In this document: positions 9,461 through 63,032 of the stretch, piece after piece
Numbering within the stretch: position 1 is the first letter of the stretch
How the letters are laid out: every line of letters begins with the position of its first letter
DNA from: Dictyostelium discoideum
Lineage: Eukaryota
Length of the DNA stretch: 64,000 nt
Direction: 5' to 3'
NCBI GenBank assembly: GCA_000004695.1
Contig: CM000151.3
Span: 256,001-320,000 of the forward strand
Position numbers and translations under genes: made by a program
Notes under the pieces: generated by a model
Databases searched by the model: none
What the model was told of the DNA's origin: nothing
The model's input: the letters and a program-made list of their open reading frames with translations, nothing else

Positions 9461-10129
9461 ATTAACTATTTCCATTTCTCTTAATAATATAGTATTACTT
9501 TTTTTTTTTTTTCTTAACAATTTTTTTTTTTTTTTTCAAATATACTTAACAACAATTTTTTTTAAATGGAAGGTTTATTTTTGTTTTTATCTTTTATTTA
9601 TTTTTTTATTTTTTTATTTTTTATGAATTAATCACCAACAATTAATTGGTGAGTCGATTAATTAAAAGATCAATTACAGGTAAAAAAAGATAATCTGAAA
9701 AATAAAAAAATTTTAAGTGGTTCAATCACAAATTTTATTACTAAAAAAAAAATTAAAAAAAGTTAAACCTTTTTTTGACTTTTTATAAAAAACAAAAATG
9801 ATATTATAAAAAAGGTGTGGGTAATTAATTTAAATTAAAAAAACTAAAAAAAAAAACAAAAAATAAAAAAAACAAAAATAAAAAAAAACAAAAAATAAAA
9901 AAAAACAAATTTTACCCCAAAATTAAGATCTTACAAGTGGTGCATTCCAATAAAATTTTTTTTTTTTTTTTTTTTTTGAATGATTATCTGTTGGCAATTG
10001 TCAAAATTTTTATTAAATGGTGGTTATTTAATTTAAAGGAAAAAATAAAATAAAATAGATAAAATAAAAAATGGTGGTTATTTAATTTAAAGGTAAAAAA
10101 AAATATTACTTAATTAAATATTTCGAAAG

Positions 10130-17016: not shown

Positions 17017-17115
17017 TCACATCCATTTTTTTTTTTTATATTTTATATTATTTTGTGCAAAATAAAAAAATAAAAAAATACACAAAAAACATATTCCCAA
17101 AAATTCAAATTTGCT

Positions 17116-17245
17116 GTTGTAGGGAATTTTCAATAAAATTTCACTGCCCAGCCAAAAAAAATTTAGGGTCAGTGATTTTTTTTTTTTCACTGTGAAATTA
17201 TCAAAATCACTGACCCTAAATTTTTTTTTTTTTCAAAAAACAAAT
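17116..17245. repeat. Left terminal inverted repeat of the transposon at 17116..19590
   Basis: Matches 55694..55820 in direct orientation and 19480..19590 and 60945..61054 in inverted orientation. Confidence 0.6.
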
Positions 17246-17306
17246 AAAGTTTGTTATTTTTTTGTTTTTAATTATTAATTCCTATTTTAATGGTTAATTA
17301 TTATAA

Positions 17307-17338
<32 letters not shown>

Positions 17339-18712
17339 TTTTTTCTCATTTTTTTTTTCTTTTTTTTTTATTTTCATATTTTCATTTTAGGACAACAAAT
17401 TATCAAACATTAAAGAAATCTAAAACTTCAGAATATTTATCATTTGAAAATAATTTAATTTAAAAGAAATGTGAAGAGTTTATATTATTTGTTATTAATG
17501 AATTACCAAAATTAAAATACTTAATTGGGTATTAATTTCAAAAGATGAAAGAACAAAAGCAGCAAAATTAGATAGTGAAGGTTTCTTTCAAAACAATTCT
17601 AAGTGTTACTCCAGTTGTTATCAATAATAAAAAATAAATAATAATAATAATGTGATATCATCAGCTCAATCTTCACTATCATTAAGTAGTGCATCAACAC
17701 CAATTCCAACTCCATTAAATACTAGTAGTAATAATATTGGTGGTAATACTACTACAAGTGTATCAGTGGGATAATCCCCAACAATTAGGGGTATACCATC
17801 ATCACCAGATCAACAAGTTTTATTCAACGCAAACCATCAGTCGGTGCAATATGATGCCAAAATTAAATTCTTCTTTGAATTGATCAACTGATTTCCTTGG
17901 TAAAGAAAGAGAAAATCATCAATCATCTTCACCTTCATATTCATCATTATCAATATCATCATCATCACAACAGCAACATAATAGTAACAATCATCCAAAA
18001 TCGATTGATGAAGCACCTGAAGTATTATCACCATTTGATATTTTACAATCAAAAGTTAATGCAGAGAATTCTTTATCTTCATCACAAGATTTAAATCAAC
18101 ATAATGTAACAACGGCTAGTCAAATTTTACAAGAAATTAAACCAACTAAAGAATTAACTAAACAAGAAACTGAAGCATGCAATTCCAGAGGAACCAATTG
18201 AAGAATGTAATAAATCAACTACAACCACTGCAATTAAGATCATCTTCTTCATCTTCTTCATCTTCTACAACAACAACAAAAACAACAACAACATCACCAC
18301 CACCACAACAACAATTAGATTCGCCATTACCATTACCAGTTAATATTATTAATATGCCAATGGATGATGATGAACTTATTAGTGATGGTACAATAAGTGG
18401 TGCTTAAACTAATGATGGTATCAATTATTGTACCATCATTAGTTAAAGAATCATCAAGAGAATCATTATTGGCTACAACTATTGATAATTCAACATTATC
18501 AACTACACCATCACCATCTCCAAAATTACCAACTCTTGAAACTGCTAAACCATTGTTACATCATCATCTTCTTCTTCTTCAAACACCACTACTCAAACTA
18601 ATAAAGTTTCTGGTGGTTCTGCTAAAGAAATTTGGACTAAAATTGATCAAAATACTGCACCATCAACTCCATCTAAAATTTTACCAAAAAGATTACCTTC
18701 TCAATCAAATCT

Positions 18713-18713
<1 letters not shown>

Positions 18714-18774
<61 letters not shown>

Positions 18775-18778
18775 TAAT
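18714..18778 (+). repeat. (AAT)n microsatellite, ~20 units
   Basis: Direct read. Inside the transposon at 17116..19590. Confidence 0.9.
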
Positions 18779-19342
18779 TAATTAAATAAATAAACAAAAA
18801 GAATAAATAAATAAAAACAATAAATAAAAAAAAAGATAATAAAATAAAACTACAATCTTAATTGAAAAAATAAATAAATAAATAAATAAATAAAATAAAT
18901 AAATAAAATAAAACTAGTTTTAATAAATCTAAAACTTTGTAAATATGTTTTGAAAAAAAAAAAAAAATTTTTATTTTATTGTTTAACTAAATTTGGTTTA
19001 AAATTCAAATAAAGAACTATCTACTCTAAAAAAGAAACCCTTTTCAAATGATAATTGTTGAACACCATTTCTACAATCACTACCGTCATGAGTAGAAAAT
19101 TACCATTTAAACTAAATTGAATAAATCCACTCGATAACCTGTTGGAAATTAGCTACTTGATGTTTTTTAATTATTATTTATTGTTTATTTGTTTATTTGT
19201 CTATTTATTTATTCATTTATTTATTCATTTATTTATTCATTTATATATTCATTCACTAATAATATTACCTACTTTAAAATTGAAAAAATGAAAATGAAAA
19301 AAAAAAAAAAAAAATTGAAAAAAATTGAAAAAAAAAAAATTG

Positions 19343-19391
<49 letters not shown>

Positions 19392-19479
19392 TCCCCATAT
19401 TTTTAATATTAAATAAAATAATAATTAAACCCAAAAATAAAATTCCCATTTAATAAACTTTATTTGTTTTTTGAAAAAA

Positions 19480-19590
19480 AAAAAAAATTTAAGGGCAGTG
19501 ATTTTTTTTTTCACTGCACAACTGTAGTGAAATTAAATAATAAAATTCACTGCGCTGGGCAGTGAAATTTTATTGAAAATTCCCTACAAC
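19480..19590. repeat. Right terminal inverted repeat of the transposon at 17116..19590
   Basis: Reverse complement of 17116..17245. Ends ...ttccctacaac. Confidence 0.6.
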
Positions 19591-19866
19591 AAAATAAATT
19601 TTTTGCTACCTCTAGTTTTTTTTAATCTATAATAAAAATATAAATATCCAAAATTATTAATTGAAATTTAATTGATTTTTAAATTGACAAAAGAAAAAAA
19701 AAACCGATATCTTGGACATCCAAGACAAAATTTTTTTTTTTTTTTAATTTTTTAATTTTTTTTCTTTTTTATTTTCTGCTTTTTTTTTTTTTTTTTTTCT
19801 TTTAAACAAAAAAACATAAATAAAAATAAAAAATAATAAATAACAAATAAATAATAAACAATTATA

Positions 19867-35214: not shown

Positions 35215-35400
35215 CCACGTGATTGTCCCATGCCAAAATTATCATATTAATTTCAGCAGCCATATTAATTTTGGCATGGGACTTATGTCTGCCAAAATTA
35301 CCGTATTAATTTCAGCATGTACATAGCAGCCAAAATTAATAAGGTAATTTTGGCATAGAAAAAAAAAAAAGTCAAAGTCATTTAATTAATAATCATCTCA
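35215..35400. repeat. MITE-like palindromic repeat, partial copy (hairpin core CCCATGCCAAAATTATCATATTAATTTCAGCAGCCATATTAATTTTGGCATGGGAC)
   Basis: Same family as 35960-36420, 43680-43885, 47440-47580 and 51690-52150. Confidence 0.6.
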
Positions 35401-35884
35401 AATATAAACAAAATTTTAGTACTAAAATTATTATTATTATTTTTATTATAATAATTATAATAAAAAAAAAAAAAAAAAAATTTCATATTATTTTATTTAT
35501 ATCTTTTATTTATTTTTATCTTTTTATTTTTATTATTAATTTTATAATTTATTTTCATTTCTTTTTTTTAGTTGATGTATATTTTTTTATTATTCATTTA
35601 TGTCTACGTTCTAATAAAAAAAATATACACAAAAAAAAAAAAAATTAAAAATAAAAAAAAAAATAAATTGAAGGCACTCATATACTGTCTTCCCAAATAA
35701 CATGTTTTTCAATGTTTTTATACAAATCAGAATTATTTTAAAATAAATTTATGGGATTCTTTTTTTTGTTAATCAAGCAAAATAACGCAGGTATCTCAAT
35801 CAGTCACTTTTCTAAATATTAATTTTTTATTATTAAATCATTATATAATTAAATTAATTAAAATAATTAAAAAAAAAATAAAAA

Positions 35885-35920
<36 letters not shown>

Positions 35921-35959
35921 GAATGAAATGGAATAAAATAAATTAAAAAAAAGAAATAC

Positions 35960-36420
35960 AGAAATTAAAGAAACTTATTTCGAAATTGTTTAAACAATCA
36001 TACAGTTTAAAATTAAATAAATTGTTTTAAACCACCACTTTTTTTGAACACATGAAAATAAATAAGAAATAAAAATAAAAAGATAAAAAAAGATTTGTTT
36101 TTATTTTTTTTTATTTTATAATTATTCTTGTCGTCAGTATTGTTACTATTAATTAATCCCATGAGTTTTTTATTATTATTATTTTTAATTCTTTTATATT
36201 TGAGATGATTATTATTAATTAAATGACTTTGAGTTTTTTTTTTTATTTTTCTATGCCCAAAATTACCATATTAATTTCAGCCTAAAATAGGTGGTCTGTG
36301 CATGCCAAAATTAATATGGCTGCTGAAATTAATATGGTAATTCTAGCAGACATAAGTCCCATGCCAAAATTATCATATTAATTTCAGCAGCCATATTAAT
36401 TTTGGCATGGGACACGTGAT
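35960..36420. repeat. MITE-like palindromic repeat, full copy (~460 bp): conserved arm ...ttataattattcttgtcgtcagtattgttactattaattaatcccatgag...atttgagatgattattattaattaaatgactttgag... followed by a nested long hairpin of CCATGCCAAAATTA.CATATTAATTTCAGC units
   Basis: Near-identical to 51690-52150. Non-coding and strongly self-complementary. Confidence 0.65.
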
Positions 36421-43936: not shown

Positions 43937-44050
43937 CTATTTCTTTATTACTGTTGTGAAATATGGAATATTAATATTATTTATTTCTTGAATATATTCA
44001 TTATCATTAGTTTCAATTTTAATTTCTTTTAAAGTAATGTTATTTGATTT

Positions 44051-44126
<76 letters not shown>

Positions 44127-45916
44127 ATTGAAATATTATTTATTAAATTTTTAAATTCTTTAACAAAATCACAAACTAATTCGTTTTTATTGAATTCAAA
44201 TATTAATGAATATAATTGTAATTTAAAAATATTATTTAATATTAAATTAAATATGAATTTTAATTGATTTAATTCATTCAATTTAATTTTATAATGTCTA
44301 ATTGATGTTAATGGTGATGAAAATATATTATCAAATAAATATTGATTAATTGAAATAGGTTCTTGATGTAATTCATTACCGCTATAACTTGGTTTTGAAG
44401 AGTAAACAATGAAATCACTACCATATAAATATAAATATTTAATTGATTTATTATTTAATAAATTTGAAAATGTATTGATATTTAATAAACCACAACAATC
44501 AAATTCAATTCTTTCAATTGATGTATTTAATTCTGAAAATAATGGTTTAAATGAATTTGAAAATGATTCTATAGTTTCGTTTATTTTATTAGCAAAAATT
44601 TCATGATCAGCTCCCTTACAATCACGATAATATAAACCTTCATAATCAATTGGAGAATATTTTGAACTTACTGATGAGATATTTAAATTCTTTAAAGATT
44701 TACTTGTAATAAATGAATTGATCATTTGATTTAATTCTGTATTAATATTTTCAGAGTTACCCGATTCTGATTTACTATTATAAAATCTAATAAATCCCAT
44801 ATCCTCAGATAAGTTTGATAATATTTGAAAAGAGCTAATTGGTATTGTAATTGAATGTAAATTTTCAAATTGATTAACTTTGGCTAAATGGAGAGGTTCA
44901 ACAAATTCATCATTATCAGGTTCAATTTGTACTTTAATTGATTCAACTTGTTGACCTGAATTATCTGGATCAAATAATGCTGAATAATTGACATGTGTAG
45001 GCATATCACTACAAGTATCAGATCCATCATAAAATATATTTCTACCTTTGAAAATTTTGAATATCTTTACTGTTTCTTCATCATTACCTACTTCTCCATC
45101 AAAACCTGCAATTGATAAATTATTTAAATATAATTCAGTACATTTCTTACCACCTTTATCAGTATCATGATCACCTTCCTCCTCTTCAGAGTTTGGGCTA
45201 TAACCATTATCCAAACAAAAATCAATATTTAATTCTAATATTTTAAATAATTTTGATATGACTTCTGAATTTTCATTTGATACATATTCATGTATTCTAA
45301 ATAAAGTTGTTTTATTATTATTACTATCATAATCAGCATCAACATTAACTACAATTCTATTATAAAGTAATTGATTATTTTCAAATTTATTTTTAATTTC
45401 TTTAAAATCATCAATTGTAATCTTATATAAAAATAAATTGATTTTAAAATAATCATTGATTATTGATTCTTTGATTTTTATAATTGAAAACTCTTTATTA
45501 AAACTAATTTTATTTTGTTGATAATTATAATCTTCATCTTTAAAAATTAAATTATTTTTATCATATTGATTTTGATTATTATAATTTTCAATAAATGATT
45601 TATTTTTATTATTATAATTAATTTTTAACCAATGTTCAAATAATTTATTATCAATAATATTATTTGATATTGTTAATGATATAAAATTATACCACTTTTT
45701 TGAAACTAATATATAATTTAATATTTCATTTCTATAAAAATAAAATTTATTAATTTTATATATATTAATAGTATTATTATTTAAATTATTATTTTTATTT
45801 TTATTTTTTTTGCTAGTTAATAAATAGTTGATTATAGATTTTAAAATTTCAAAATCAATAATATCTTGAAATATTTTATTGTTATTATTTGTTTTTATTT
45901 TTTTACTTGTTGACAT
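43937..45916 (-). CDS. Tandem-family paralogue (659 aa), the only inverted member. (CAA)n-encoded polyQ of ~37 residues.
   Basis: Intact ORF on the minus strand. Family upstream motif in reverse at 45917-45955 (...cattattatttgttaacatgatatgttaagagtgagtttg). Confidence 0.85.
44051..44126 (-). repeat. (CAA)n trinucleotide microsatellite encoding polyQ (shown as (TTG)n on the plus strand)
   Basis: Direct read. The homologous polyQ in other paralogues ranges from 3 to 12 Q. Confidence 0.9.
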
Positions 45917-51698: not shown

Positions 51699-52150
51699 TT
51701 CGAAATGTTTAAACAATCATACAGTTTAAAATTAAATAAATTGTTTTAAACCACCACTTTTTTTGAACACATGAAAATAAATAAGATATAAAAATAATAA
51801 GATAAAAAAAGATTTTTTTTTTTTTTTTTTTTTATTTTATAATTATTCTTGTCGTCAGTATTGTTACTATAATTAATCCCATGAGTTTTTTTTATTATTA
51901 TTTTTAATTCTTTTATATTTGAGATGATTATTATTAATTAAATGACTTTGAGTTTTTTTTTTTATTTTTCTATGCCCAAAATTACCATATTAATTTCAGC
52001 AGCCATATTAATTTCAGCCTAAAATAGTTGGTCTGTGCATGCCAAAATTAATATGGCTGCTGAAATTAATATGGTAATTCTAGCAGACATAAGTCCCATG
52101 CCAAAATTACCATATTAATTTCAGCAGCCATATTAATTTTGGCATGGGAC
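51690..52150. repeat. MITE-like palindromic repeat, full copy (near-identical to 35960-36420)
   Basis: Shared arm ...aaacaatcatacagtttaaaattaaataaattgttttaaaccaccactttttttgaacacatgaaaataaataag... plus nested CCATGCCAAAATTACCATATTAATTTCAGC hairpins. Confidence 0.65.
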
Positions 52151-53489: not shown

Positions 53490-55472
53490 ATGTCAACAAA
53501 AAAAAAAATTAAAACAGATAATAATAATAAAATATTTCAAGATTTTATTGATTTTGAAATTTTAAGATCTTTAATCAATTATTTATTAATCAACAAAACA
53601 AATAATAATAATAATAATAATAATAAATATAAAATTAGTAAATTTTATTTACATAGAAATGAAATATTGAATTATATATTAGTTTCAAAAAAGTGGTATA
53701 ATTTTATATCATTAACAATATCAAATAATATTATTAATAATAAATCATTTGAACATTGGTTAAAAATTAATAATAATAATAATAATAAATCATTTACTAA
53801 AAATTATAATAATCAAAATCGATATGATAAAAATAATTTAATTTTTAATAACAAATATAGTAAAAATAAAATTGGTTTTAATAAAGAATTTTCAATTATA
53901 AAAATCAAAGAATCAATAATCAAAGATTATTTTAAATTCAATTTATTTTTAAGTAATATTACAATTGATGATTTTAAAGAAATTAAAAATAAATTTGAAA
54001 ATAATCAATTAGTTTATAATAGAATTGTTGTTGATATTAAAACTGGCTATTATGGTGAAGGGAATCAAGATGAAATTTTATTTAAAATACATGAATATGT
54101 ATCAAATGAAAATTCAGAAATCATATCAAATTTATTTAAAATATTAGAATTAAATCATGATTTTATGATAATCGATGACTTTCATCCAAAATCTAAAGAA
54201 GAGGATGAAGAGGATGAGGAGGATGATGAAAATGATAAAGGTAGTAAGAAATGTACTGAAATATATTTAAATAATTTATTGGTTTCCGGTTATGATCTAA
54301 CTATGGATGAGGATGAAGATAGAGAATCATTAAAGATATTCAAAATATTTAAAAGTAAAAATATATTTTATGATGGGTCTGGTATTGCTAGTGATATTCC
54401 AACACATGTCAATTATTCAGCATTGTTTGATCCTGATAATTCAGGTCAACAAGTTGAATCGATTAAAGTAAAAAATGAACTTGAAGATCCTGATTTTGTA
54501 GAACCACTCCATTTAATCAAAGTTAATCAATTTAAAAATTTACATTCAATTACAATACCAATTAATTCATTTCAAATATTATCAAACTTATCCGAAGAAA
54601 TGGGATATTTTAGTATCGATTGTTTTAAATCTGGTTTTGGTCTTTCAGATAATATGAAATCAGAATTAAATCAAATGATCAATTCATTCATTACAAGTAA
54701 ATCTTTAAAAAATTTAAAAATAACATCTATTAGTACAAAAGAAGATCCAATTGATTATGATGCTTATTATGATGAAGGTGATCTTCAAACTTTTATGAAT
54801 CAAATAAATGAACCTAAAGAATCATTTTCAAATTGTTTCAAACCATTATTTTCAGAATTAAATACATCAATTGAAAGAATTGAATTTGATTGTTGCGGTT
54901 TATTAAATATCAATACATTTTCAAATTTATTAAATAATAAATCAATTAAATATTTATATTTATATGATAGTGATTTCTTTTTTTCTTCATTAAAAACAAG
55001 TGATGGTGGTAGTGATGATTGTGGTATTGATGATGATGGTGGTAGTGATGATTGTGGTATTGATGATGATGGTGGTAGTGATGATTGTGATGCATATCAA
55101 AAAATTATTTCCATTAATCAATATCTATTTGAAAATATATTTTCATCACCATTAACATCAATTAGACATTACAGAATTAAATTCAAAGAATTAGATGAAT
55201 TAAAATTCATATTTAATTTAATATTAAATAATATTTTTAAATTACAATTATATTCATTAATATTTGAATTCAATGAAAACGAATTAGTTTATGAATTTGT
55301 TAAAGAATTTAAAAATTTAATAAATAATATTTCAATACAAGAACAACAACAACAACAACAAAAATCAAACAACATAAATTTAAAAGAAATTAAAATTATA
55401 ATAAATGATGACTGTTTAGAAGAATTAAATAATCCATATTTCAAAACAACAATAAAGAATAGCCCATATTAA
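53490..55472 (+). CDS. Tandem-family paralogue (660 aa). Contains a 3 x 27-bp tandem repeat encoding DGGSDDCGIDD at ~55010-55090. Its upstream region lacks the CACTCTTTATAA motif.
   Basis: Intact ORF with all conserved blocks. Confidence 0.85.
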   Translation: MSTKKKIKTDNNNKIFQDFIDFEILRSLINYLLINKTNNNNNNNNKYKISKFYLHRNEILNYILVSKKWYNFISLTISNNIINNKSFEHWLKINNNNNNKSFTKNYNNQNRYDKNNLIFNNKYSKNKIGFNKEFSIIKIKESIIKDYFKFNLFLSNITIDDFKEIKNKFENNQLVYNRIVVDIKTGYYGEGNQDEILFKIHEYVSNENSEIISNLFKILELNHDFMIIDDFHPKSKEEDEEDEEDDENDKGSKKCTEIYLNNLLVSGYDLTMDEDEDRESLKIFKIFKSKNIFYDGSGIASDIPTHVNYSALFDPDNSGQQVESIKVKNELEDPDFVEPLHLIKVNQFKNLHSITIPINSFQILSNLSEEMGYFSIDCFKSGFGLSDNMKSELNQMINSFITSKSLKNLKITSISTKEDPIDYDAYYDEGDLQTFMNQINEPKESFSNCFKPLFSELNTSIERIEFDCCGLLNINTFSNLLNNKSIKYLYLYDSDFFFSSLKTSDGGSDDCGIDDDGGSDDCGIDDDGGSDDCDAYQKIISINQYLFENIFSSPLTSIRHYRIKFKELDELKFIFNLILNNIFKLQLYSLIFEFNENELVYEFVKEFKNLINNISIQEQQQQQQKSNNINLKEIKIIINDDCLEELNNPYFKTTIKNSPY

Positions 55473-55481
55473 CCATCAGTA

Positions 55482-55523
<42 letters not shown>

Positions 55524-55539
55524 AAACTTGTTTTCAAAC

Positions 55540-55625
55540 ATACTCTTTAATATTAACAAATAATGTCAACAAATAAATTAAAAAACAGATAATAATAATA
55601 CAATATTTTAAAATTTAATTTTTTT
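55540..55625 (+). pseudogene. 5' remnant of a family gene (upstream motif + ATGTCAACAAATAAATTAAAAAACAGATAATAATAATACAATATTTTAAAAT) cut off immediately upstream of the transposon left end. The matching 3' remnant is at 61105..61160.
   Basis: catactctttaatattaacaaataATGtcaacaaat... then stops. 61105-61160 encodes ...LNNIFKLQLYSLKFE, the conserved C-terminal block. Confidence 0.6.
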
Positions 55626-55895
55626 TTTTTTTTTTTTATATAAATAAATAATTTACCTTTTGATTTGGAAATATAATTTATTTTATTTTGTTTGTTGTAG
55701 GGAATTTTCCATAAAATTTCACTACAGTAGCGTAGTGAATTTTATTATTTAATTTCACTACAGTAGCGTAGTGAAAAAAAAAAATCACTGACCTTAAATT
55801 TTTTTTTTTTTCAAAAAACAAATAAAGTTTATTAAATTGAAATTTTATTTTTTGTTTTAATTATTATTTTATTTATTTTTATTATAATTATTGTT

Positions 55896-55935
<40 letters not shown>

Positions 55936-56076
55936 CAATTTTTTTTTTTTAAATTTTTTTCAATTTTTATTTGTTTATTAAATTGTAATTTTATTTTTTG
56001 TTTTAATTATTATTTTATTTATTATTATTGTTAATTTTTTTTTTTTTTCAATTTTTTTTTTTTTAATTTATTTTTA

Positions 56077-58038
56077 TTAATTTATTTTTATTAACTCCCT
56101 GAGTTGTTCAATTGCTTGATTTACCATATCACTGTAAACACTGCACACAATTGAATTTTTTCTAGCTTTGTTACCTCTGGTGCATTTGATGTTTTTGCAT
56201 TTTCCTTTGTATACAAAAAAGTCCAAATATAATTCGTTTTCTATTACAGTTTTTACACAATGTTGGTGAAATTGTTTTGATTTTAATTCTAATGCTTCTA
56301 ACATCATATTTGGATTTTTAACGATTAAAGCATCACCACTATTTACATATAGTACTTTGGCTGCTTTTTCGAGGAATTTAGTCAAATTTTCCTCTGAATC
56401 TAACTATTCTTCATTGCCATATTCAATGGCTAAATTTCTTAAGAGTTTTATCGAATCTATTAATTCTTCGATCATTCTTTTTTTTTGAAATTTTTTTTTA
56501 TTTTGTTTTTTCAATTTTTTTTTTTTATTTTGTTTTTTCAATTTTTTTTAAGTTTTATTTTTTTTTATTTTTTTTTATTTTTTTTAACAAATGTAATTTT
56601 TTTTTATTTTTTTCAATTTTTTTTTTTTTTTAATTTTTAATTTTTTTTTTTTTTTTTAATTTTTTGTGTTGATTTGTGTTTTTTTTGTTTTTTTGATTTG
56701 GCCACTTGTTTTTATTTTCTAATTTCCCCATACCCCCTTCTATTAATTGCAACCAAATCAAGTTCTAATTTTTGTGTCCTTGTTAACTTTGTTTTTGCAA
56801 CTTTTTTTGAAGGTATCACATTAACGATTTTTCCTATTGATGGTGATTTGGAAGGTGATTTAAATGGTGATTTAAAAGGTGAATTGGAAGGTGATTTAAA
56901 TGGTGAATTGGAAGGTGAAATGGATGGTGATTTGGAAGGTGATTTAAATGGTGATTTGGAAGGTGATTTTAATGGTGATTTAAATGGTGAATTGGAAGGT
57001 GAAATGGATGGTGATTTGAGAGGTGATTTGGATGGTTTAGAATGTGATTTTAAAGGAGGTTTATTAACAATTGGTAGGACGGGAGGACGGCCTCTGAACA
57101 GTTGTTACTATACCACTATACCATTACCAGATTGTGGTATAGTATACGATGGTATTATTTGCACTTGAGGTAACTATTTCTTTTAATCTTTTAAATTCAT
57201 ATCCTTTCTCAAACAATTCATTAAATTTGGCGCTGTTAGATTATTATTTAAAAATGGGAGTATTTCTTCTTGTTCCATTTCATTATTGAGTTTGTGTTGA
57301 AATGGATTATCGTTAATGATAGGTGGAATATTTGATGGATTGTTAATAGCATCTTCCAAAACCCTAAATGGATCATTTTGTGTTACCAATTGATGCAAGT
57401 TGAAATTGGATAAATCCTTACCAAGATTTTTAATAAACTGAACCAAAAATTCAATAACTTTCCCATCATTATTTAAATAAAGACCAGAAGTAAAAGAATC
57501 AATATCTTTTTGTATGTTTGGCGATGTTCTAAAAATATCAACTGTTGATTGTTTATAAAGAACCAACTTGTTACCTCCTACAAAACCAGAGTATAAACCT
57601 TTTTTTTGAAGGCTATTGATTCCATCTTCCAAAAATTCAAGTTTATAAAGTTGTTTAGTGTCTTCCTGTATTACCTTATGAATTTTACACAAAATCAATA
57701 TTTTCTATTAGAATTAAATATAAAATTTGTTAATTATTACTGTTTCATATATTATTAATCTTTATGTTTTAATTACTTACATTATTTTTTTTAATTTCTA
57801 GAAAGAGTACAGTATCACCAACTTTCAATCCCTTTGGTGGTTTTGAATTCCATTGATTTTGGTAACTTGTGAGATTTTCAAGAATAATAGCTGTTCTTTC
57901 TTCTTTTGAAACATCTGAAACACCAATTGATTGAGAGTCTTGTTCTGATTGAACATTAATAAACAAAGGAACAATACCAACAGCTTGAGATGGTGTCATT
58001 TTAATTGTTCTTGTTTTTGTATTATTGTAATCATACAA
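56077..58038 (-). CDS. Probable downstream (C-terminal) exons of the same integrase-like transposase (ORFs 57769..58038, 57183..57698, 56077..56385), interrupted by a 24-bp minisatellite region
   Basis: KVGDTVLF motif typical of integrase C-terminal domains. Co-linear and co-oriented with the catalytic exons. No independent homology recognised for the last two ORFs. Confidence 0.35.
56830..57060 (+). repeat. 24-bp minisatellite (~9-10 units; ggtgatttggaaggtgatttaaat), read on the plus strand as GDLEGDLNGDLKGELEG... (ORF 56674..57168, probably spurious)
   Basis: Direct read of a tandem 24-bp periodicity. Confidence 0.7.
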
Positions 58039-58120
58039 AGCTTGTTTTAATAGTTCAGAAAGAGACCTAGAAGTACCATCAAGAAAACTAAAATTTATTT
58101 ATAAATGATTAATTAATAAA

Positions 58121-58872
58121 CATCACAGCAAAGAAAAAACCACCTTTAAATTCGCTTTAAATTAAATTTAAATTTGCTTTAAAGTCCTGAATTAAAGCAA
58201 TTTTAAAGGTAATTTTTAAGGTTACTTTAAAATCACCTTAAAAATTACCTTTAAAATTACCTTTAAAATTACCTTTTTAATGGCTTTAAAAGCGAGGTCC
58301 TGAGTTCGAATCCGTTATTTAACGGATAAATTTTTTAAAATTTTTTTTTTAATTTTTCAAAAATTACCCAAAAGGGATTCGATCCCCCGACCCTCTATCA
58401 AAGGGTAGTCTCATCAACCATTACACCATTTGATTGCTTTGATGAAAAATTTAAAAATGATAGAATATTTTATCCCCATTTTTTTGTGCTAAAATTAGAT
58501 CTTTTTTATTAAAAATCTTAAATTTATGTTTAAAGGAAATTTAAATTCACTTTAAATCTACTTTTAATCTACTTTAAATCCTATTTAAAATTAATTTAAA
58601 ATAAATTTTAAAGGTATTTTTAAATATCTTAAAAATTATCTTAAAAATTACCTTAAAAATCACCTTTAAAATCACCTTTAAAATCACCTTTAAAATTGCT
58701 TAAAAATTTATTTTAAAGCAAATTTTAAAGGCATTTTTAAATATCTTAAAAATTACCTTAAAAATTACCTTAAAAATGAATTTTTTAAACGCGGCTTTAA
58801 ATTCAATTTAAATCCAATTTAAATCAACTTTTCTTTAAATTTGCTTTAAAGGTGCATTTTTCTTTGCTGTGA
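58121..58872. repeat. 760-bp TIR-bounded MITE-like repeat, copy A. 17-bp termini ATCACAGCAAAGAAAAA / TTTTTCTTTGCTGTGAT. (TTAAAGG/TTACC)n-rich. Contains tRNA-like debris (GGTCCTGAGTTCGAATCC; and, on the minus strand, ATGGTGTAATGGTT D-arm-like plus ACCCT-TTGATAG-AGGGT anticodon-stem-like).
   Basis: ~95% identical to 59689..60450. Lies between the integrase catalytic and C-terminal exons. Confidence 0.6.
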
Positions 58873-59692
58873 TATCGATAATTTATATTGTTCACAATAT
58901 CATACTCTTGTTGTTTTAATTTTGAGATCCTCTCCTTGATAGTTCGATTCAATCTTTCTACCATACCTTGAGTTGTTGGTGTACGAGGAGCTCCATGTGC
59001 TGACTTGGAGCCTGGAAAAAGTTTTAGGAATTCTTTTTGGACTTTGTTTTTAAATTCACGTCCATTATCGCAGTGCCATACTTTCACAGGTTTGCCAAAG
59101 TACGTGAGAGCCAAAAAATTGTATATGGGAACTGTTCTCTTTGTTGTCAAACATCTAAAAAATAAATGATAATTAAAATAAAAAAAGAAAACTAATAAAT
59201 TAATAAATAAAAAATAAATACCTTCCAGTAGCAAATTTTGTAAAAGAATCTATGCATAGAATAATGTAAACAACATCGGTGTCGTACGGTTGTACAGAGT
59301 CATATTGGATAAGATCATCTAGTTTAGTTAGTATCTTTTCATTATCATCATCGTATGTAACTTTTTCTTTATGTTCACCTTTAATTGATGTTAAATCATA
59401 AACCAATCTTGAGTATTCCTCGGTATCTACAATTGGAGCAAAATCCTTTGTTATACCTATTAATTTATTTAAATTATTAAAAGAGTTTTAATATAAAAGT
59501 TACAAAACATCATATAAAAATGATTGATACCAAACCTTTTATTCTATTTCGTTGGCAAATGTCACACGTATCTACTGCATCAGATACAAAAGAATACAAT
59601 CCCATATTATAATATTTAGTCTTGTAGTTCCCATAGGTTGCATCTCTTCCTATATGACCTTTATGCATTTCTTCCCAGAGTGATACCATCAC
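58824..59692 (-). CDS. Integrase-like transposase, N-terminal and catalytic exons (HHCC zinc-binding motif, then DD35E-type core), split over three overlapping ORFs, implying introns or frameshifts
   Basis: H-x3-H...C-x2-C in ORF 59510..59692. D..D(NG)..E signature WHCDNGREF and QGMVERLNRTIK in ORF 58824..59234. Confidence 0.6.
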
Positions 59693-60450
59693 AGCGAAGA
59701 AAAAACCACCTTTAAATTCGCTTTAAATTAAATTTAAATTTGCTTTAAAGTCCTGAATTAAAGCAATTTTAAAGGTAATTTTAAAGGTAATTTTTAAGGT
59801 TACTTTAAAATCACCTTATTTAATATTTATTTATAGGCTTATCATTTAAGCTGAAGGGTTATTTTAATGGCTTTAAAAGCGAGGTCCTGAGTTCGAAGCC
59901 GTTATTTAACGGATAAATTTTTTAAAATTTTTTTTTAATTTTTCAAAAATTACCAAAAGGGATTCGATCCCCCGACCCTCTATCAAAGGGTAGTCTCATC
60001 AACCATTACACCATTTGATTGCTTTGATGAAAAATTTAAAAATGATAGAATATTTTATCCCCATTTTTTTGTTCTAAAATTAGATCTTTTTTATTAAAAA
60101 CCTTAAATTTATGTTTAAAGGAAATTTAAATTCACTTTAAATCTACTTTAAATCTACTTTAAATCCTATTTAAAATTAATTTAAAATAAATTTTAAAGGT
60201 ATTTTTAAATATCTTAAAAATTATCTTAAAAATTACCTTAAAAATCACCTTTAAAATCACCTTTAAAATCACCTTTAAAATTGCTTAAAAATTTATTTTA
60301 AAGCAAATTTTAAAGGCATTTTTAAATATCTTAAAAATTACCTTAAAAATTACCTTAAAAATGAATTTTTTAAACGCGGCTTTAAATTCAATTTAAATCC
60401 AATTTAAATCAACTTTTCTTTAAATTTGCTTTAAAGGTGCATTTTTCTTT
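59689..60450. repeat. 760-bp TIR-bounded MITE-like repeat, copy B
   Basis: Same termini (ATCACAGCGAAGAAAAAAA...TTTTTCTTTGCTGTGAT) and same tRNA-like segment. Lies upstream of the integrase start. Confidence 0.6.
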
Positions 60451-60743
60451 GCTGTGATTCTATAATCATTAATTACTTCTAAACACACTTCTTTTGATAT
60501 ATTTCTATCTCCGCCACAATTCATGACTTTTTTTTCAATTCTAAATAATTTTTCTTTTCTGTTTCTGTTTTTTATTGGTCAGAATTTAAAAAATGATTGT
60601 GTTATTGTAAGGAAAAATATTTACTCATCATGTAAAAATTTATAATTTTTATGTTTAGTATTTTCAAAATTATTATCTTCAATAAATTTTAAATAATTTA
60701 TAATTTCATTTATTTTATCTTGTTTCATTTTGGGAAAATGAAA

Positions 60744-60778
<35 letters not shown>

Positions 60779-61104
60779 TGTTGGGGAAAAAAAAAAAAAG
60801 TTTTGGCGCAAAAAAAAAAAAAAAAATTAAATAAAAAAAAAAAAAAATTAAATAAAAAAAAAAAAAAATAAAAAAACTTATATAGAACTAATAATCAAAT
60901 AAAAGATAATAATTTAATAAACTTTATTTGTTTTTTGAAAAAAAAAAAATTTAGGGTCAGTGATTTTTTTTTTTCACTACGCTACTGTAGTGAAATTAAA
61001 TAATAAAATTCACTACGCTACTGTAGTGAAATTTTATTGAAAATTCCCTACAACATTGTTCGATGAAAATGAGAAGATTTTTTTTATCCCAGTTGTAGTG
61101 AAAA

Positions 61105-61160
61105 AATTAAATAATATTTTTAAATTACAATTATATTCATTAAAATTTGAAAAAAAATAA
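61105..61160 (+). pseudogene. 3' remnant of the family gene disrupted by the transposon at 55694..61054
   Basis: aaattaaataatatttttaaattacaattatattcattaaaatttgaa = LNNIFKLQLYSLKFE block. No upstream coding. Confidence 0.5.
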
Positions 61161-61313
61161 TAAAAAAAAAAAAAAATTTTTGGCTTTTAAGATTTATGGA
61201 GAATTATCCATCAAAAAAAAAAAAAAAAAAAAAAGGTTAAAAAAAAAAAAAAGGTTAAAAAAAAAAAAAAAATTAAACTTTTTTTTAAAAACTTATTCTT
61301 AAAACAAATAAAA

Positions 61314-63032
61314 ATGTTAACAAATAAAAAAATTAAAACAGATAATAGTAATAAAATATTTTCAAATACTAATGATAATGAAATTTTAAGATCTTTAATC
61401 GATTATTTATTAATCAGCAAAAACAATAAAACAAATAATAATAATAATGCAAATCAATATAAAATTAAAAAAATTTTAATAAATAGAAATGAAATATTCA
61501 ATTATATATTAGTTTCAAAAAAGTGGTATAATTTTATATCATTAACAATATCAAATAATATTATTGATAATAAATCATTTGAACATTGGTTAGAAATTAA
61601 TTATACAAAAAAATCATATACTAAAAATAATAATAATCAAATTCAATATGATAAAAAGAAAATTAATTTTAATAAAAAGTTTTCAATTATAAAAATCCAA
61701 GAATCAATAATCAATGATTATTTTAAATTCAATTTATTTTTAGATAATTTTACAATTAATTATTTTAAAGAAATTAAAGATAAATATGAAAATAATCAAT
61801 TAGATTATAAAAGAATAGTTGTTAATCTTAAAACTAATTCTGGTGGTAATAAAAAAATTTTATTAAATATAAATGAATATGTATCAAATGAAAATTCAGA
61901 AATCATACCAAATCTATTTAAAATATTAGAATTAAATTCTGATTTTAAGTTGGACAAGTGCTATATTCCAATATCTGAAGGTACTGAAATATATTTAAAT
62001 AATTTATCGATTTCTGGTTATGAGGGTATAACATCGAAGATATTCCAAATTTTCAAAAGTAAAAAGATAATTTATGATGGGTCTTGTTGTCCAACAAATG
62101 TCAATTATTCAAAGATATTTGATCCAGATAATTCAGGCCAACAAGTTGAATCGATTAAAGTTAAAAATGAAAGTGGTAATAAACAGTTTGTTGAACCACA
62201 TCATTTAATTAAAGTTTACCAATTTGAAAATTTACATTCAATCACAATACCAATGGATTCATTTCAAATATTATCAGGCTTTTCTGAAAAAATGGGATTC
62301 AATAAATTTGATATGAATAATAAATATCCAGGTAATTCGAAAAATATGGAATCAGAATTAAATCAAATGATCAATTCATTCATTACAAGTGAATCTTTAA
62401 AGAATTTAAAAATATCATCAGTATGTTCACAATACGTTATTTTTAAAATGAATATTGATAAAATAAATCAAATTAAAGAATCAATTTCAAAATCATTTAA
62501 ACCATTATTTTCAGAATTAAATACATCAATTGAAAGAATTGAATTAGATTGTGGTGGTATATTAAATATCAATACATTTTCAAATTTATTAAATAATAAA
62601 TCAATTAAATATTTATATTTATATGATAGTGATTTTATTGTTTATTCATTTAAACAAACTGGTGGTGGAAGTTATTGTAGTATTAATCAATTTCTATTTG
62701 AAAATATATTTTCATCACCACAAACATCAATTAAACATTATGGATTTTGCTTCAAAAAATCAAATGAACTCGAATTAATATTTAATTTAATATTAAATAA
62801 TATTTTTAAATTACAACTATATTCATTAATATTTGTATTAAATAAAAACGAATTAATTGAGAAATTTGTTAAAGAATATGGAAAATTTATAAAAAAAATT
62901 TCAACACTAATACAAAAACCACAACAAGAACAACAAGAAAAACAAGAACAAGAACAACAACCACAGGAAATACAAAATTTAAATTTAAAAGAAATTAAAA
63001 TTAAAATTAAAATTAAAATAAAATTATTTTAA
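61314..63032 (+). CDS. Divergent, shorter tandem-family paralogue (572 aa; MLTNKKIKTDNSNKIF...). C-terminal (KI)n and (QEQ)n expansions. The family-conserved C-terminus (NPYFTTVIEK) lies out of frame at 63040-63125.
   Basis: Intact ORF with conserved blocks (DPDNSGQQVESIKV, NMESELNQMINSFITSESLKNL, SFKPLFSELNTSIERIELDC). Downstream QYFQELKNLKNPYFTTVIEKTVNING is in another frame. Confidence 0.75.
   Translation: MLTNKKIKTDNSNKIFSNTNDNEILRSLIDYLLISKNNKTNNNNNANQYKIKKILINRNEIFNYILVSKKWYNFISLTISNNIIDNKSFEHWLEINYTKKSYTKNNNNQIQYDKKKINFNKKFSIIKIQESIINDYFKFNLFLDNFTINYFKEIKDKYENNQLDYKRIVVNLKTNSGGNKKILLNINEYVSNENSEIIPNLFKILELNSDFKLDKCYIPISEGTEIYLNNLSISGYEGITSKIFQIFKSKKIIYDGSCCPTNVNYSKIFDPDNSGQQVESIKVKNESGNKQFVEPHHLIKVYQFENLHSITIPMDSFQILSGFSEKMGFNKFDMNNKYPGNSKNMESELNQMINSFITSESLKNLKISSVCSQYVIFKMNIDKINQIKESISKSFKPLFSELNTSIERIELDCGGILNINTFSNLLNNKSIKYLYLYDSDFIVYSFKQTGGGSYCSINQFLFENIFSSPQTSIKHYGFCFKKSNELELIFNLILNNIFKLQLYSLIFVLNKNELIEKFVKEYGKFIKKISTLIQKPQQEQQEKQEQEQQPQEIQNLNLKEIKIKIKIKIKLF

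What the first reader, a model, noticed from the sequence alone, without database searches (positions are those of the whole stretch)
55694..61054. Autonomous integrase-type DNA transposon inserted into a family paralogue and itself colonised by a 760-bp MITE
The minus strand carries, in order, an HHCC zinc finger, the D-D(NG)-E core (WHCDNGREF...QGMVERLNRTIKE), a GDxV C-terminal region and further exons. This is the signature of the integrase-like transposase described for Tdd-4. They are spread over at least six ORFs, so the gene has introns and/or is decaying. Two ~95%-identical copies of a 760-bp unit with 17-bp TIRs (ATCACAGCAAAGAAAAA) sit upstream of and inside the gene. Each contains tRNA-derived-looking segments (T-arm-like GGTCCTGAGTTCGAATCC; D-arm-like ATGGTGTAATGGTT and an anticodon-stem-like ACCCT/TTGATAG/AGGGT on the other strand) but no intact cloverleaf. 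The element sits exactly where a family gene should be: a 5' stump lies at 55540-55625 and a 3' stump at 61105-61160.
Basis: partly seen in the sequence, partly recalled or inferred. Interest (0 to 1): 0.7.

Follow-up and report, generated by a model that had tools for sequence, protein, structure and literature searches.

The report
Broken Tdd-4 transposon with two nested MITEs
This is a copy of Tdd-4, a DNA transposon already known in Dictyostelium discoideum, disabled by two insertions of a 0.76-kb non-coding mobile element whose core looks like a decayed tRNA gene; the locus is ordinary, and the tRNA-like core is the only mildly interesting part.

Summary
The window is D. discoideum AX4 chromosome 2. 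Coordinates 55693-61055 hold a Tdd-4 element (Ginger2/Tdd superfamily) with ~243-nt terminal inverted repeats (TIRs) and an intact 5-bp target-site duplication (TSD), TTGTT. Its minus-strand gene encodes an integrase-type transposase (H2C2 zinc finger plus DDE core) and has introns.

With the two inserts removed and one TSD copy kept at each site, the element is 3,844 bp. That equals the span of the published TDD-4 reference coordinates.

This copy is not autonomous. Insert B splits the coding exon, and the C-terminal exon carries four in-frame stop codons.

The inserts (58124-58871 and 59690-60456) are true MITEs:
- Five more copies at 96-98% identity lie in another assembly.
- Three empty sites confirm exact insertion.

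ARAGORN finds no tRNA in the window, and the Rfam tRNA model scores the core at 13.6 bits against a cut-off of 29. However, in another copy a TRE3-type retrotransposon begins about 96 bp downstream of this pseudo-tRNA, the same distance as from real tRNA genes.

The element sits in a relic that was probably already deleted, not in an intact paralogue. The MITE may belong to the DDT family; I could not verify its name.

The parts
55485..55626 (+). 5' relic of a family paralogue: upstream region plus about the first 20 codons, with the ATG at 55563
   Evidence: 81% identity over 134 nt to 61237-61367 (E=1e-27). It also matches the starts of the paralogues at 32473, 41663, 26899, 38765, 29190 and 53490.
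55688..55692 (.). Left copy of the Tdd-4 target-site duplication, TTGTT
   Evidence: The five bases outside the shared terminus TGTTGTAGGG are the same on both sides. A 5-bp TSD is the published Tdd-4/5 feature (PMC2836005).
55693..61055 (-). Tdd-4 (Ginger2/Tdd) DNA transposon copy, 5,363 bp including the two nested MITEs
   Evidence: Removing both inserts together with both TSD copies leaves 3,840 bp. Keeping one TSD copy at each site gives 3,844 bp. This equals the span of the published TDD-4 coordinates AAFI02000006.1:356458-352615. Protein stretches are 89-100% identical to DDB_G0292352.
55693..55935 (.). Left Tdd-4 TIR, carrying two copies of the palindromic motif TTCACTACAGTAGCGTAGTGAA
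   Evidence: (I1: 243 nt, 80% complementary), and the sequence read.
60813..61055 (.). Right Tdd-4 TIR
61056..61060 (.). Right copy of the Tdd-4 TSD, TTGTT
60625..60728 (-). Transposase exon 1 (MKQDKINEI...FLHD), followed by a 60-nt GT-AG intron at 60565-60624
   Evidence: Frame analysis, tblastn with P0003, and the sequence read.
60459..60564 (-). Transposase exon 2, part upstream of MITE B (...NCGGDRNISKEVCLEVINDYR)
   Evidence: tblastn with P0001.
59690..60456 (+). MITE copy B (767 bp, CACAGC...GCTGTG). Its 2-bp TSD AT is at 59688-59689 and 60457-60458. It splits the Met71 codon of exon 2.
   Evidence: The empty site in an uninterrupted Tdd-4 copy is 100% identical over 122 nt (L001 12398-12519). 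P0001 reads INDYRMVSLW straight across the site.
59536..59689 (-). Exon 2, part downstream of MITE B, holding the H2C2 zinc finger (MVSLWEEMHKGH...CDICQRNRIK)
   Evidence: 100% identical to P0001 residues 23-73. Pfam Integrase_H2C2.
59221..59469 (-). Exon 3, holding the first catalytic D (..VVYIILCIDSFTKFATGR)
   Evidence: tblastn with P0003 residues 121-203.
58906..59159 (-). Exon 4, holding the second D and the E (WHCDNGREF...QGMVERLNRTIKE). The GTATGA splice donor starts at 58905.
   Evidence: tblastn. Pfam rve and rve_3. The P0001 junction QQ|DFLDGT fixes the intron.
58124..58871 (+). MITE copy A (748 bp). Its 2-bp TSD AT is at 58122-58123 and 58872-58873. It lies inside intron 4 (58088-58905).
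   Evidence: Intron limits come and the P0001 gene model.
58362..58435 (-). Pseudo-tRNA core of MITE A. It has an A-box-like TGGTGTAATGG, an anticodon arm ACCCT-TTGATAG-AGGGT, and a B-box-like GGATCGAATCC. The equivalent in MITE B is at about 59950-60021.
   Evidence: Rfam tRNA 13.6 bits over model positions 1-71, below the cut-off of 29. No ARAGORN call. Folding z-score 0.1. Invariant or nearly so in 7 copies.
58296..58313 (+). Isolated T-arm fragment GGTCCTGAGTTCGAATCC, which contains an exact match to the B-box motif GTTCRANNC. An 8-bp-stem hairpin follows at 58309-58326.
   Evidence: Sequence. The motif is as used in PMC5391098. Conserved in all copies.
57781..58087 (-). Exon 5 (FLDGTSRSL...GDTVLFLEIKKNN), the integrase C-terminal region
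   Evidence: 99% identical to P0001 residues 133-229.
56724..57704 (-). Long C-terminal exon with an SPxKSP 12-nt repeat. It has four in-frame stops relative to P0001 (KD*KK*L and VV**QL).
   Evidence: tblastn alignment. Repeat family D4.
56077..56475 (-). 3'-terminal coding region of Tdd-4 (MIEELIDSIKLLRNLAIEYGNEE, then LDSEENLTKFLEKAAK...)
   Evidence: P0015 carries the same peptide.
61103..61150 (+). 3' relic of the family paralogue (the conserved LILNNIFKLQLYSLIF segment)
   Evidence: 91-96% identity over 44-48 nt to at least 12 paralogues in the window.

Best explanation
**What the locus is.** It is a copy of Tdd-4, the known D. discoideum cut-and-paste transposon of the Ginger2/Tdd group. 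Its transposase is a retroviral-integrase-like DDE enzyme with an N-terminal H2C2 zinc finger.

**How it got there.** The element transposed into what was most likely an internally deleted relic of a tandem gene-family member, between DDB_G0271418 and DDB_G0271424. It made the family's characteristic 5-bp target duplication, here TTGTT. That the ~243-nt TIRs with their paired palindromic motifs are the transposase binding sites is inferred, not shown.

**What happened next.** Two copies of a 0.76-kb non-coding TIR element (a MITE) then inserted independently.
- One went into coding exon 2. This truncates the protein before the zinc finger and the catalytic core.
- One went into the intron after the DDE exon.
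- Further in-frame stop codons accumulated downstream.

This copy can therefore move only if another Tdd-4 copy supplies transposase.

**The MITE.** It belongs to a young multi-copy family with termini CACAGCRAAGAAAAA and 11-12-bp TTTAAA-type subterminal repeats. It makes exact 2-bp target duplications. It is therefore mobilised by a transposase other than that of Tdd-4. That enzyme is unidentified; it is possibly the DDT family's (inferred).

**The MITE core.** It is a decayed tRNA gene with tRNA-like A-box to B-box spacing, plus a second, convergent B-box fragment. It is not a functional tRNA. It probably still behaves as a TFIIIC/Pol III-type site, because a TRE3-type retrotransposon starts at the canonical distance downstream of it in another copy (inferred from one case plus published work on DDT-B).
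For: **Identity of the genome and the element**
- The flanking proteins are exact matches to DDB_G0271418 and DDB_G0271424 of D. discoideum AX4.
- The TIRs are 243 nt at 80% complementarity.
- The published TDD-4 has a 5-bp TSD, 260-bp TIRs and a 3,839/3,844-bp length (PMC2836005).
- The reconstituted length here is 3,840 bp plus 4.
- Pfam gives H2C2 and rve. Stretches are 89-100% identical to DDB_G0292352.

**The MITE**
- Seven copies align at 95% mean column identity.
- The TSDs are AT, AT, TA, TA, GC and AT.
- Three empty sites were found, two of them at 100% identity over 122 nt.
- It has no ORF longer than 37 aa.
- Shorter relatives of 303-547 bp share the termini.

**The pseudo-tRNA**
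- The Rfam tRNA model aligns end to end but below threshold, at 13.6 and 17 bits.
- ARAGORN calls tRNA-Ile(gat) only in the L003 relative.
- A non-LTR element (ORF1 cluster of 37 members; ORF2 with RVT_1) starts 96 nt after tRNA-Ser in L006 and 85 nt after tRNA-Phe in L008. It starts 96 nt after the MITE pseudo-tRNA in L001, in the same orientation.
- An A/B-box motif in the DDT-B transposon is a TRE5-A target (PMC9012585).
Against: - rve scores below Pfam's own cut-off (28 against 32.6 bits).
- No empty site was obtained for MITE A. Its 2-bp TSD is inferred from the flanking AT/AT and by analogy.
- All six TSDs are palindromic dinucleotides, so for any single copy 'TSD' cannot be told apart from 'part of the TIR'. 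Only the variation among copies and the empty sites settle it.
- The TRE3 association rests on one copy. Its far junction lies beyond the fetched locus, so no TRE3 target duplication and no remaining MITE arm were seen.
- The pseudo-tRNA diverges about as fast as the rest of the element in the 82%-identical relative, and it is absent from the 303- and 382-bp relatives. There is therefore no sign of selection on it.
- The autonomous partner and the published name of the MITE were not established.
Confidence: 0.9

Rival explanations
1. The locus is a nested LTR retroelement. The two 760-bp direct repeats are its LTRs, and they flank an integrase-bearing internal region.
For: The two units are in direct orientation and flank the integrase core. 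Integrase domains are shared with Ty3/gypsy elements.
Against: - Each unit ends CACAG...CTGTG, which is inverted termini and not TG...CA.
- Each unit has its own 2-bp duplication, and the unit occurs as solo insertions elsewhere.
- An otherwise identical Tdd-4 copy has the exact empty site for unit B.
- The 814 bp between the units holds only the H2C2 and DDE exons. There is no RT, RNase H, PBS or PPT.
- The whole element has 243-nt inverted, not direct, termini and a 5-bp TSD.
Confidence: 0.01
2. The 760-bp units are mobilised by the Tdd-4 transposase itself, as deletion derivatives of Tdd-4. Their presence in Tdd elements would then reflect self-targeting.
For: Five of the seven young copies seen lie inside Tdd-4 or Tdd-5-like elements. 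Both window copies lie in 3.8 kb of a 64-kb window.
Against: - The termini are unrelated: CACAGCRAAG against TGTTGTAGGG.
- The TSD is 2 bp against 5 bp.
- The loci outside the window were fetched through Tdd proteins, so the sample is biased toward Tdd neighbourhoods.
- A separate non-autonomous element with true Tdd-type TIRs exists at 17115-19591, which shows what a real Tdd derivative looks like.
Confidence: 0.03
3. The tRNA-like core is a chance resemblance or inert debris with no present activity. The TRE3 element next to one copy is a coincidence of a transposon-rich region.
For: - All tRNA scores are below threshold.
- Folding is no better than that of shuffled sequence.
- The internal B-box has A in place of T54 and fails GTTCRANNC.
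- The core is dispensable, since short relatives lack it, and it is not preferentially conserved.
- Only one TRE3 junction was seen.
Against: - The A-box to B-box spacing (44 nt), a 5/5 anticodon stem and a 6/7 acceptor stem match tRNA geometry.
- The Rfam model aligns over all 71 positions.
- The TRE3-type 5' end lies 96 nt downstream in the correct orientation. That is identical to its distance from tRNA-Ser in L006.
- An analogous A/B-box in the DDT-B transposon is an experimentally observed TRE5-A target (PMC9012585).
Confidence: 0.4
4. The unit is a tRNA-derived SINE (a retroposon) rather than a DNA-transposon MITE.
For: It contains a tRNA-like segment with A and B boxes.
Against: - The tRNA-like part is internal, about 240-310 nt from one end, and not at the 5' end.
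- There is no poly(A) or simple-repeat tail.
- The element has TIRs of about 50 nt and a fixed 2-bp TSD.
Confidence: 0.01

Closest known systems
Tdd-4 (TDD-4) of Dictyostelium discoideum, Ginger2/Tdd group of integrase-like DNA transposons (Wells 1999; Glöckner 2001; Bao, Kapitonov and Jurka 2010, PMC2836005)
   Same: - It is in the same species.
- It has a 5-bp TSD and TIRs of about 250 nt.
- It is 3,844 bp once the inserts are removed.
- Its transposase has H2C2 and DDE domains, and the gene has introns.
- Its protein is 89-100% identical to an annotated Tdd-4-type gene product.
   Different: Nothing differs at family level. This copy carries two MITE insertions and in-frame stop codons, so it is a defective member.
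DDT family of putative D. discoideum DNA transposons (DDT-A, DDT-B, DDT-S), in particular the A/B-box motif reported in DDT-B (PMC9012585)
   Same: - It is a class II element of the same genome.
- It carries a tRNA-like A/B-box arrangement within a few hundred bases of one end.
- That motif attracts a tRNA-gene-targeting retrotransposon: TRE5-A in the paper, a TRE3-type element here.
   Different: No DDT sequence was available, so homology is untested. The MITE is 0.76 kb and non-coding, whereas the DDT-B consensus is 5,471 bp.
Stowaway/Tc1-mariner-type MITEs (2-bp TA duplication)
   Same: It is short and non-coding, has TIRs, makes a 2-bp target duplication, has many near-identical copies, and often nests in other repeats.
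   Different: The target is not restricted to TA: AT three times, TA twice and GC once. The termini CACAGC are not Tc1/mariner-like, and no Tc1/mariner transposase was linked to it.
thug-S repeat of D. discoideum (source of multicopy miRNAs)
   Same: It is a small TIR-bearing repeat of the same genome, and it is present in the same window.
   Different: The published thug-S-derived miRNA sequences map to 35246-36395 and 51989-52132 and not to the 760-bp unit. The sequences are unrelated.

Membership tests
Tdd-4 / Ginger2-Tdd DNA transposons | Transposase related to retroviral/gypsy integrase: H2C2 zinc finger plus DDE core | tested here: met
   Pfam Integrase_H2C2 at 33 bits, above its 25.5 cut-off. 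rve at 28 bits (E=2.8e-6), below its 32.6 cut-off. The D, D and E motifs are read directly.
Tdd-4 / Ginger2-Tdd DNA transposons | Long terminal inverted repeats (published as 260 bp for TDD-4) | tested here: met
   243-nt arms, 80% complementary. The terminus TGTTGTAGGG is shared with four other element ends.
Tdd-4 / Ginger2-Tdd DNA transposons | 5-bp target-site duplication | tested here: met
   TTGTT at 55688-55692 and at 61056-61060.
Tdd-4 / Ginger2-Tdd DNA transposons | Length and sequence of the Tdd-4 consensus (about 3.84 kb) | tested here: met
   3,844 bp after excision of the inserts, against the 3,844-bp coordinate span in PMC2836005. DNA is 97-98% identical to another Tdd-4 copy (L001). 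The consensus itself was not available.
Autonomous transposon (this copy) | Uninterrupted transposase reading frame after splicing | tested here: not met
   MITE B splits codon 71. There are four in-frame stops in the 57704-56724 exon.
MITE (non-autonomous class II element) | Short, with no coding capacity | tested here: met
   748-767 bp. The longest internal ORF is 37 aa of low-complexity sequence.
MITE (non-autonomous class II element) | Terminal inverted repeats and a fixed-length target-site duplication | tested here: met
   The TIR is about 53 nt at 77% complementarity. Six of six complete copies have a 2-bp TSD.
MITE (non-autonomous class II element) | Multiple dispersed, near-identical copies, with empty sites available | tested here: met
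   Seven copies at 95-99% identity in two assemblies. Three empty sites.
MITE (non-autonomous class II element) | An identified autonomous partner with the same TIRs | tested here: inconclusive
   None is present in the window or in the 8 fetched loci. A metagenome scan for the TIR found nothing.
tRNA gene | Cloverleaf that scores above detection thresholds | tested here: not met
   ARAGORN finds 0 in the window. Rfam RF00005 gives 13.6 bits against a cut-off of 29. The minimum-free-energy fold is not a cloverleaf, z-score 0.1.
Pol III-type target (A/B-box locus as defined for TRE integration) | B box matching GTTCRANNC with an A box about 32-57 bp upstream | tested here: inconclusive
   The internal B box is GATCGAATC, one mismatch from the motif, 44 nt after the A-box-like TGGTGTAATGG. 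An exact GTTCGAATC lies on the other strand without an A box.
Pol III-type target (A/B-box locus as defined for TRE integration) | TRE elements integrated at canonical distance and orientation | tested here: met
   There is one case. A TRE3-type 5' end lies 96 nt downstream of the pseudo-tRNA in L001, against 96 and 85 nt from real tRNA genes. The far junction was not seen.
LTR retroelement | Direct LTRs ending TG...CA, with PBS, PPT and an RT domain | tested here: not met
   The units have inverted CACAG/CTGTG ends and their own TSDs. There is no RT between them.
DDT family (DDT-S?) | Sequence identity to the DDT-A, DDT-B or DDT-S consensus | not testable with these tools
   Glöckner et al. 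2001 and Wells 1999 are not held. No Repbase or dictyBase sequences are available. There is only the indirect A/B-box parallel.

The most novel reading that the evidence does not exclude
A young class II MITE family of D. discoideum carries a decayed tRNA gene that still assembles TFIIIC/Pol III factors. Each new MITE insertion would then create a new landing pad for tRNA-gene-targeting retrotransposons: a TRE3-type element here, and TRE5-A on DDT-B in PMC9012585. These new sites would include positions inside other transposons, such as Tdd-4 and Tdd-5, which the MITE seems to favour. On this reading a DNA transposon would be spreading 'safe-haven' target sites through a compact genome.
Probability: 0.3. 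Interest if true: 0.55.

Novelty: already known. Interest (0 to 1): 0.25.

Why it matters
The main object is an annotated-genome copy of a transposon family described in 1999, so it adds nothing new to transposon biology. Two side results could matter to people who work on Dictyostelium mobile elements.

- **MITE insertion chemistry.** The MITE makes an exact 2-bp duplication, and all six seen are palindromic dinucleotides. Its termini are CACAGC. Both features narrow the search for its still-unidentified transposase. D. discoideum DDT and thug transposases are said to resemble no known family (PMC5633606).

- **The pseudo-tRNA core.** It appears to be used by a TRE3-type retrotransposon exactly as a tRNA gene would be. 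This would extend the single published A/B-box observation in DDT-B to a dispersed, multi-copy element. It also gives a simple genome-wide test of whether DNA transposons seed new Pol III-type target sites.

Tried and rejected
**Literature**
- Wells 1999 (PMC148809), Glöckner 2001 (PMC311061) and Eichinger 2005 (PMC1352341) are not held. The published names and consensus sequences of small D. discoideum repeats could therefore not be checked.
- Searches for DDT-S, thug-T and H3R gave no sequence or length data. H3R turned out to be the DGLT-A solo LTR, so it is excluded.

**Rejected identities for the 760-bp unit**
- thug-S was tested with published thug-S miRNA sequences and rejected. They map elsewhere in the window.
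- A Helitron-like insertion between A and T was considered because of the A|TC...GA|T junctions. It was rejected because other copies have TA and GC duplications.
- A resemblance of the terminus CACAGCA...AAAAAACC to a V(D)J/Transib signal was noted and dismissed. The spacing is wrong, and the TSD is 2 bp rather than 5 bp.

**Database look-ups that failed**
- Exact-protein look-ups for P0001 and P0014, both AX4 Tdd-4 models, found no record. No empty site for MITE A was obtained.
- A metagenome scan for the MITE TIR found nothing.

**Checks on the tRNA-like core**
- An Rfam scan of the whole 7-kb region found only sub-threshold miRNA-like hairpin matches in the MITE arms. I treat them as by-products of the inverted repeats.
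- Conservation of the pseudo-tRNA relative to the rest of the MITE was checked in diverged relatives. There is no excess conservation.

Full report
**Where the window comes from.** The two ORFs flanking the finding (53490-55472 and 61314-63032) are exact matches to DDB_G0271418 and DDB_G0271424 of Dictyostelium discoideum AX4, on an 8.48-Mb contig, chromosome 2. The window holds at least 12 tandem paralogues of this roughly 570-730-aa gene family.

**The outer element.**
- Coordinates 55693-61055 are bounded by 243-nt inverted arms that are 80% complementary (I1).
- A 45-nt terminal motif occurs only at the two ends, with none expected by chance.
- Comparison of seven Tdd-type ends, in the window and in a second assembly, shows that all share TGTTGTAGGGAATTTTC.
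- With that boundary, the five bases outside the element are TTGTT on both sides. This is the 5-bp target duplication reported for TDD-4 and TDD-5 (PMC2836005).
- Each TIR carries two copies of a palindromic 22-mer, TTCACTACAGTAGCGTAGTGAA (read). That these are transposase binding sites is my inference.

**The gene.**
- On the minus strand the coding sequence is spread over six or more open stretches.
- An assembled N-terminal 394 aa hits Pfam Integrase_H2C2 at 33 bits, above its cut-off. It hits rve at 28 bits (E=2.8e-6), just below its cut-off.
- The D (CIDSF), D (WHCDNGREF), E (QGMVERLNRTIKE) and GDTV motifs are all present.
- The closest database proteins are Dictyostelium only. The best is DDB_G0292352, at 93% identity overall and 89-100% per aligned stretch.
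- A second clade at about 46-57% identity is Tdd-5-like. This label is my assumption: the source gives these proteins no Tdd name.
- Introns have GT-AG borders. The DDB_G0292352 junction '...KLKQQ|DFLDGT...' fixes the intron after the DDE exon as 58905 (GTATGA) to 58088 (TTTTAG).

**The two inserts.**
- Units A (58122-58873) and B (59688-60458) align over their full length.
- Cutting both out, with both TSD copies, leaves 3,840 bp. Keeping one copy of each 2-bp duplication gives 3,844 bp. That is exactly the span of the TDD-4 reference coordinates in PMC2836005, Table 2 (AAFI02000006.1:356458-352615; the table prints 3,839).
- An internally deleted Tdd-4 copy in assembly GCA_054883475.1 (L001 11300-13041) is 100% identical over 122 nt to the reconstructed empty site of unit B.
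- DDB_G0292352 reads INDYRMVSLWEEMH straight across the same site.
- Unit B therefore inserted into AGA|AT|GGT and split the Met71 codon. Read-through reaches a stop within about 15 codons, before the zinc finger.
- Unit A lies in the intron described above.
- Independently of the inserts, the long C-terminal exon (57704-56724) has four in-frame stops relative to DDB_G0292352.
- This copy is therefore not autonomous.

**The MITE family.**
- L001, 19 kb near the end of a 3.6-Mb contig of another D. discoideum assembly, contains four more complete copies and one truncated copy at 96-98% identity.
- It also contains 303-382-bp relatives that share the termini. L003 holds a 547-bp relative and a truncated copy.
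- All complete copies begin CACAGC and end GCTGTG, and each is flanked by a 2-bp duplication: AT and AT in the window; TA, TA, GC and AT in L001.
The TIR itself runs about 53 nt at 77% complementarity.
- Two further empty sites were found. One is a 100% identical paralogous sequence in L001. The other is a Tdd-5-like paralogue in L002.
- All six duplications are palindromic dinucleotides. From rough base composition I estimate about a 0.1% chance of this; I did not compute it.
- The body is built from TTTAAA-type repeats with an 11-12-bp period and has no ORF above 37 aa.
- The termini and TSD length differ from those of Tdd-4, so a different transposase must move it. None was found in the 64-kb window, in 8 fetched loci, or by a metagenome scan.
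- Five of the seven young copies lie inside Tdd-4 or Tdd-5-like elements. However, the outside loci were fetched through Tdd proteins. Only the window, with two of two copies in 6% of the sequence, is an unbiased hint of preference or of tolerated sites.

**Stability of the locus.** The same nested arrangement is present, collinear and 98.5% identical, at the orthologous locus of GCA_054883475.1 (L005). There, copy B lacks the odd 45-nt segment that accounts for much of the A/B divergence in AX4. Without it the two copies are about 97% alike (L005 copy B against window copy A).

**The tRNA-like core.**
- ARAGORN finds no tRNA in the window.
- Rfam finds no tRNA at E<=10 in the 7-kb search. It gives only 13.6 bits, against a cut-off of 29, when the search is restricted to 191 nt. 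That alignment still covers all 71 model positions at 58365-58435(-).
- By hand, the acceptor stem pairs 6/7, the D stem 3/4 and the anticodon stem 5/5 (loop TTGATAG, anticodon GAT).
- The T arm is GGGGG-ATCGAAT-CCCTT, with A in place of T54.
- The A-box-like TGGTGTAATGG lies 44 nt before the B-box-like motif, as in tRNAs.
- Thermodynamic folding gives no cloverleaf, with a z-score near 0.
- On the other strand, GGTCCTGAGTTCGAATCC (58296-58313) is a T-arm half. It contains an exact match to the B-box query GTTCRANNC used by Spaller et al. (PMC5391098).
- In a truncated relative in L003 (about 83% identical overall, 93% over the 241-nt core) with one extra C, ARAGORN does call tRNA-Ile(gat) at 11914-11985. 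Rfam still gives only 17 bits.
- The core is not better conserved than the rest of the element, and it is missing from the shortest relatives.
- It is therefore a decayed tRNA gene carried as passenger sequence, and it is not needed for transposition.

**Evidence that the core still acts as a Pol III-type site.**
- The truncated MITE copy in L001 (17321-17922) ends at MITE position 145. There it abuts the 5' end of a non-LTR element, AAAAAAACCGCACCGCGATCAAGAGG..., whose ORF1 starts at 18094.
- That ORF1 belongs to a 37-member Dictyostelium cluster. The element's ORF2 has an RVT_1 domain.
- The same 5' end lies 96 nt after a true tRNA-Ser gene in L006 and 85 nt after a true tRNA-Phe gene in L008, in the same orientation.
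- In L001 the element starts 96 nt after the end of the MITE pseudo-tRNA (17756-17826), also in the same orientation.
- This parallels the one published observation of an A/B-box motif, within the first 428 nt of the DDT-B transposon, that is targeted by TRE5-A (PMC9012585).
- That parallel is the reason I suspect the MITE is a DDT-family derivative. It is one case, and the far junction lies outside the fetched DNA.

**The target site.**
- The 5' stump (55485-55626, ATG at 55563) and the 3' stump (61103-61150) are genuine relics of a family member.
- Because the TTGTT duplication is intact, the flanks were contiguous when Tdd-4 arrived. Only about 110 bp separated the two stumps. The paralogue had most likely lost its roughly 1.7-kb middle already, so the transposon did not cause that loss.

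**Comparison with known families, and verdict.**
- Every defining feature of Tdd-4 that I could test is met. The locus is a defective member of a known family in a reference genome.
- The inserts meet every MITE criterion except an identified partner.
- LTR-retroelement, SINE, Helitron-like and thug-S readings were each tested and rejected.
- Glöckner et al. 2001 claimed a complete catalogue of complex repeats for this genome. A multi-copy 0.76-kb element is therefore very probably already listed, perhaps as DDT-S, but I could not check this.
- I rate the finding as already known, with modest residual interest in the MITE's 2-bp palindromic target and its tRNA-mimicking core.

Noticed in passing
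window 17115-19591: A second element, 2,477 bp, has Tdd-type TIRs of about 275 nt (terminus TGTTGTAGGGAATTTTCAATAAAATTTCACTGCC). It has no similarity to Tdd-4 or Tdd-5 proteins, and its 5-bp flanks do not match (TTTGC and AAATA). It looks like a non-autonomous Tdd derivative or a rearranged copy.
   Followed up: partly
window 35223-36409 and 51960-52150: Published thug-S-derived miRNA sequences (miRNA_can_D3-5p and -3p, PMC4894637) match at six and six positions with one or two mismatches. They lie inside a ~1.2-kb inverted-repeat element and a ~190-bp solo hairpin. These are thug-S-type repeats and are unrelated to the 760-bp MITE.
   Followed up: partly
window 59815-59860 (MITE copy B): A 45-nt segment of the AX4 reference differs from all six other MITE copies and from the orthologous copy in GCA_054883475.1 (L005 ~8500-8545). 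It keeps a similar base skeleton. It may be a sequencing error in the reference or a strain-specific patch.
   Followed up: partly
L001 17756-18094 (GCA_054883475.1 JBTAPE010000001.1): The 5' end of a TRE3-type non-LTR retrotransposon lies 96 nt downstream of the pseudo-tRNA of a MITE copy and truncates the MITE at position 145. The distance and orientation are the same as at real tRNA-Ser (L006) and tRNA-Phe (L008) genes.
   Followed up: yes
L003 11914-11985: ARAGORN calls tRNA-Ile (anticodon gat, unusual for a eukaryotic cytosolic tRNA) inside a truncated MITE relative (about 83% identical overall, 93% over the core). Rfam gives only 17 bits. A Tdd-4 end is inserted into the same MITE relative at 11733.
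   Followed up: yes
L001 8001-15000: One Tdd-5-like element carries three MITE copies (7609-8368, 9068-9826 and 13677-14435) and also an internally deleted Tdd-4 (11300-13041) inserted near its C-terminal coding end. The gene model ACTFIT_001978 (P0002) starts at an ATG inside a MITE (MGIKYSIIFKFFIKAIKW).
   Followed up: partly
window 56804-57072: The Tdd-4 C-terminal exon contains a 12-nt coding repeat (SPSKSPFK-type). Its copy number differs between Tdd-4 copies: this copy is 8 aa shorter than DDB_G0292352.
   Followed up: no
window 2017-63032: At least 12 tandem paralogues of an uncharacterised gene family of roughly 570-730 aa (DDB_G0271418-like) fill most of the window. One is inverted (43937-45916), and one is reduced to the two stumps that flank the Tdd-4.
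   Followed up: partly
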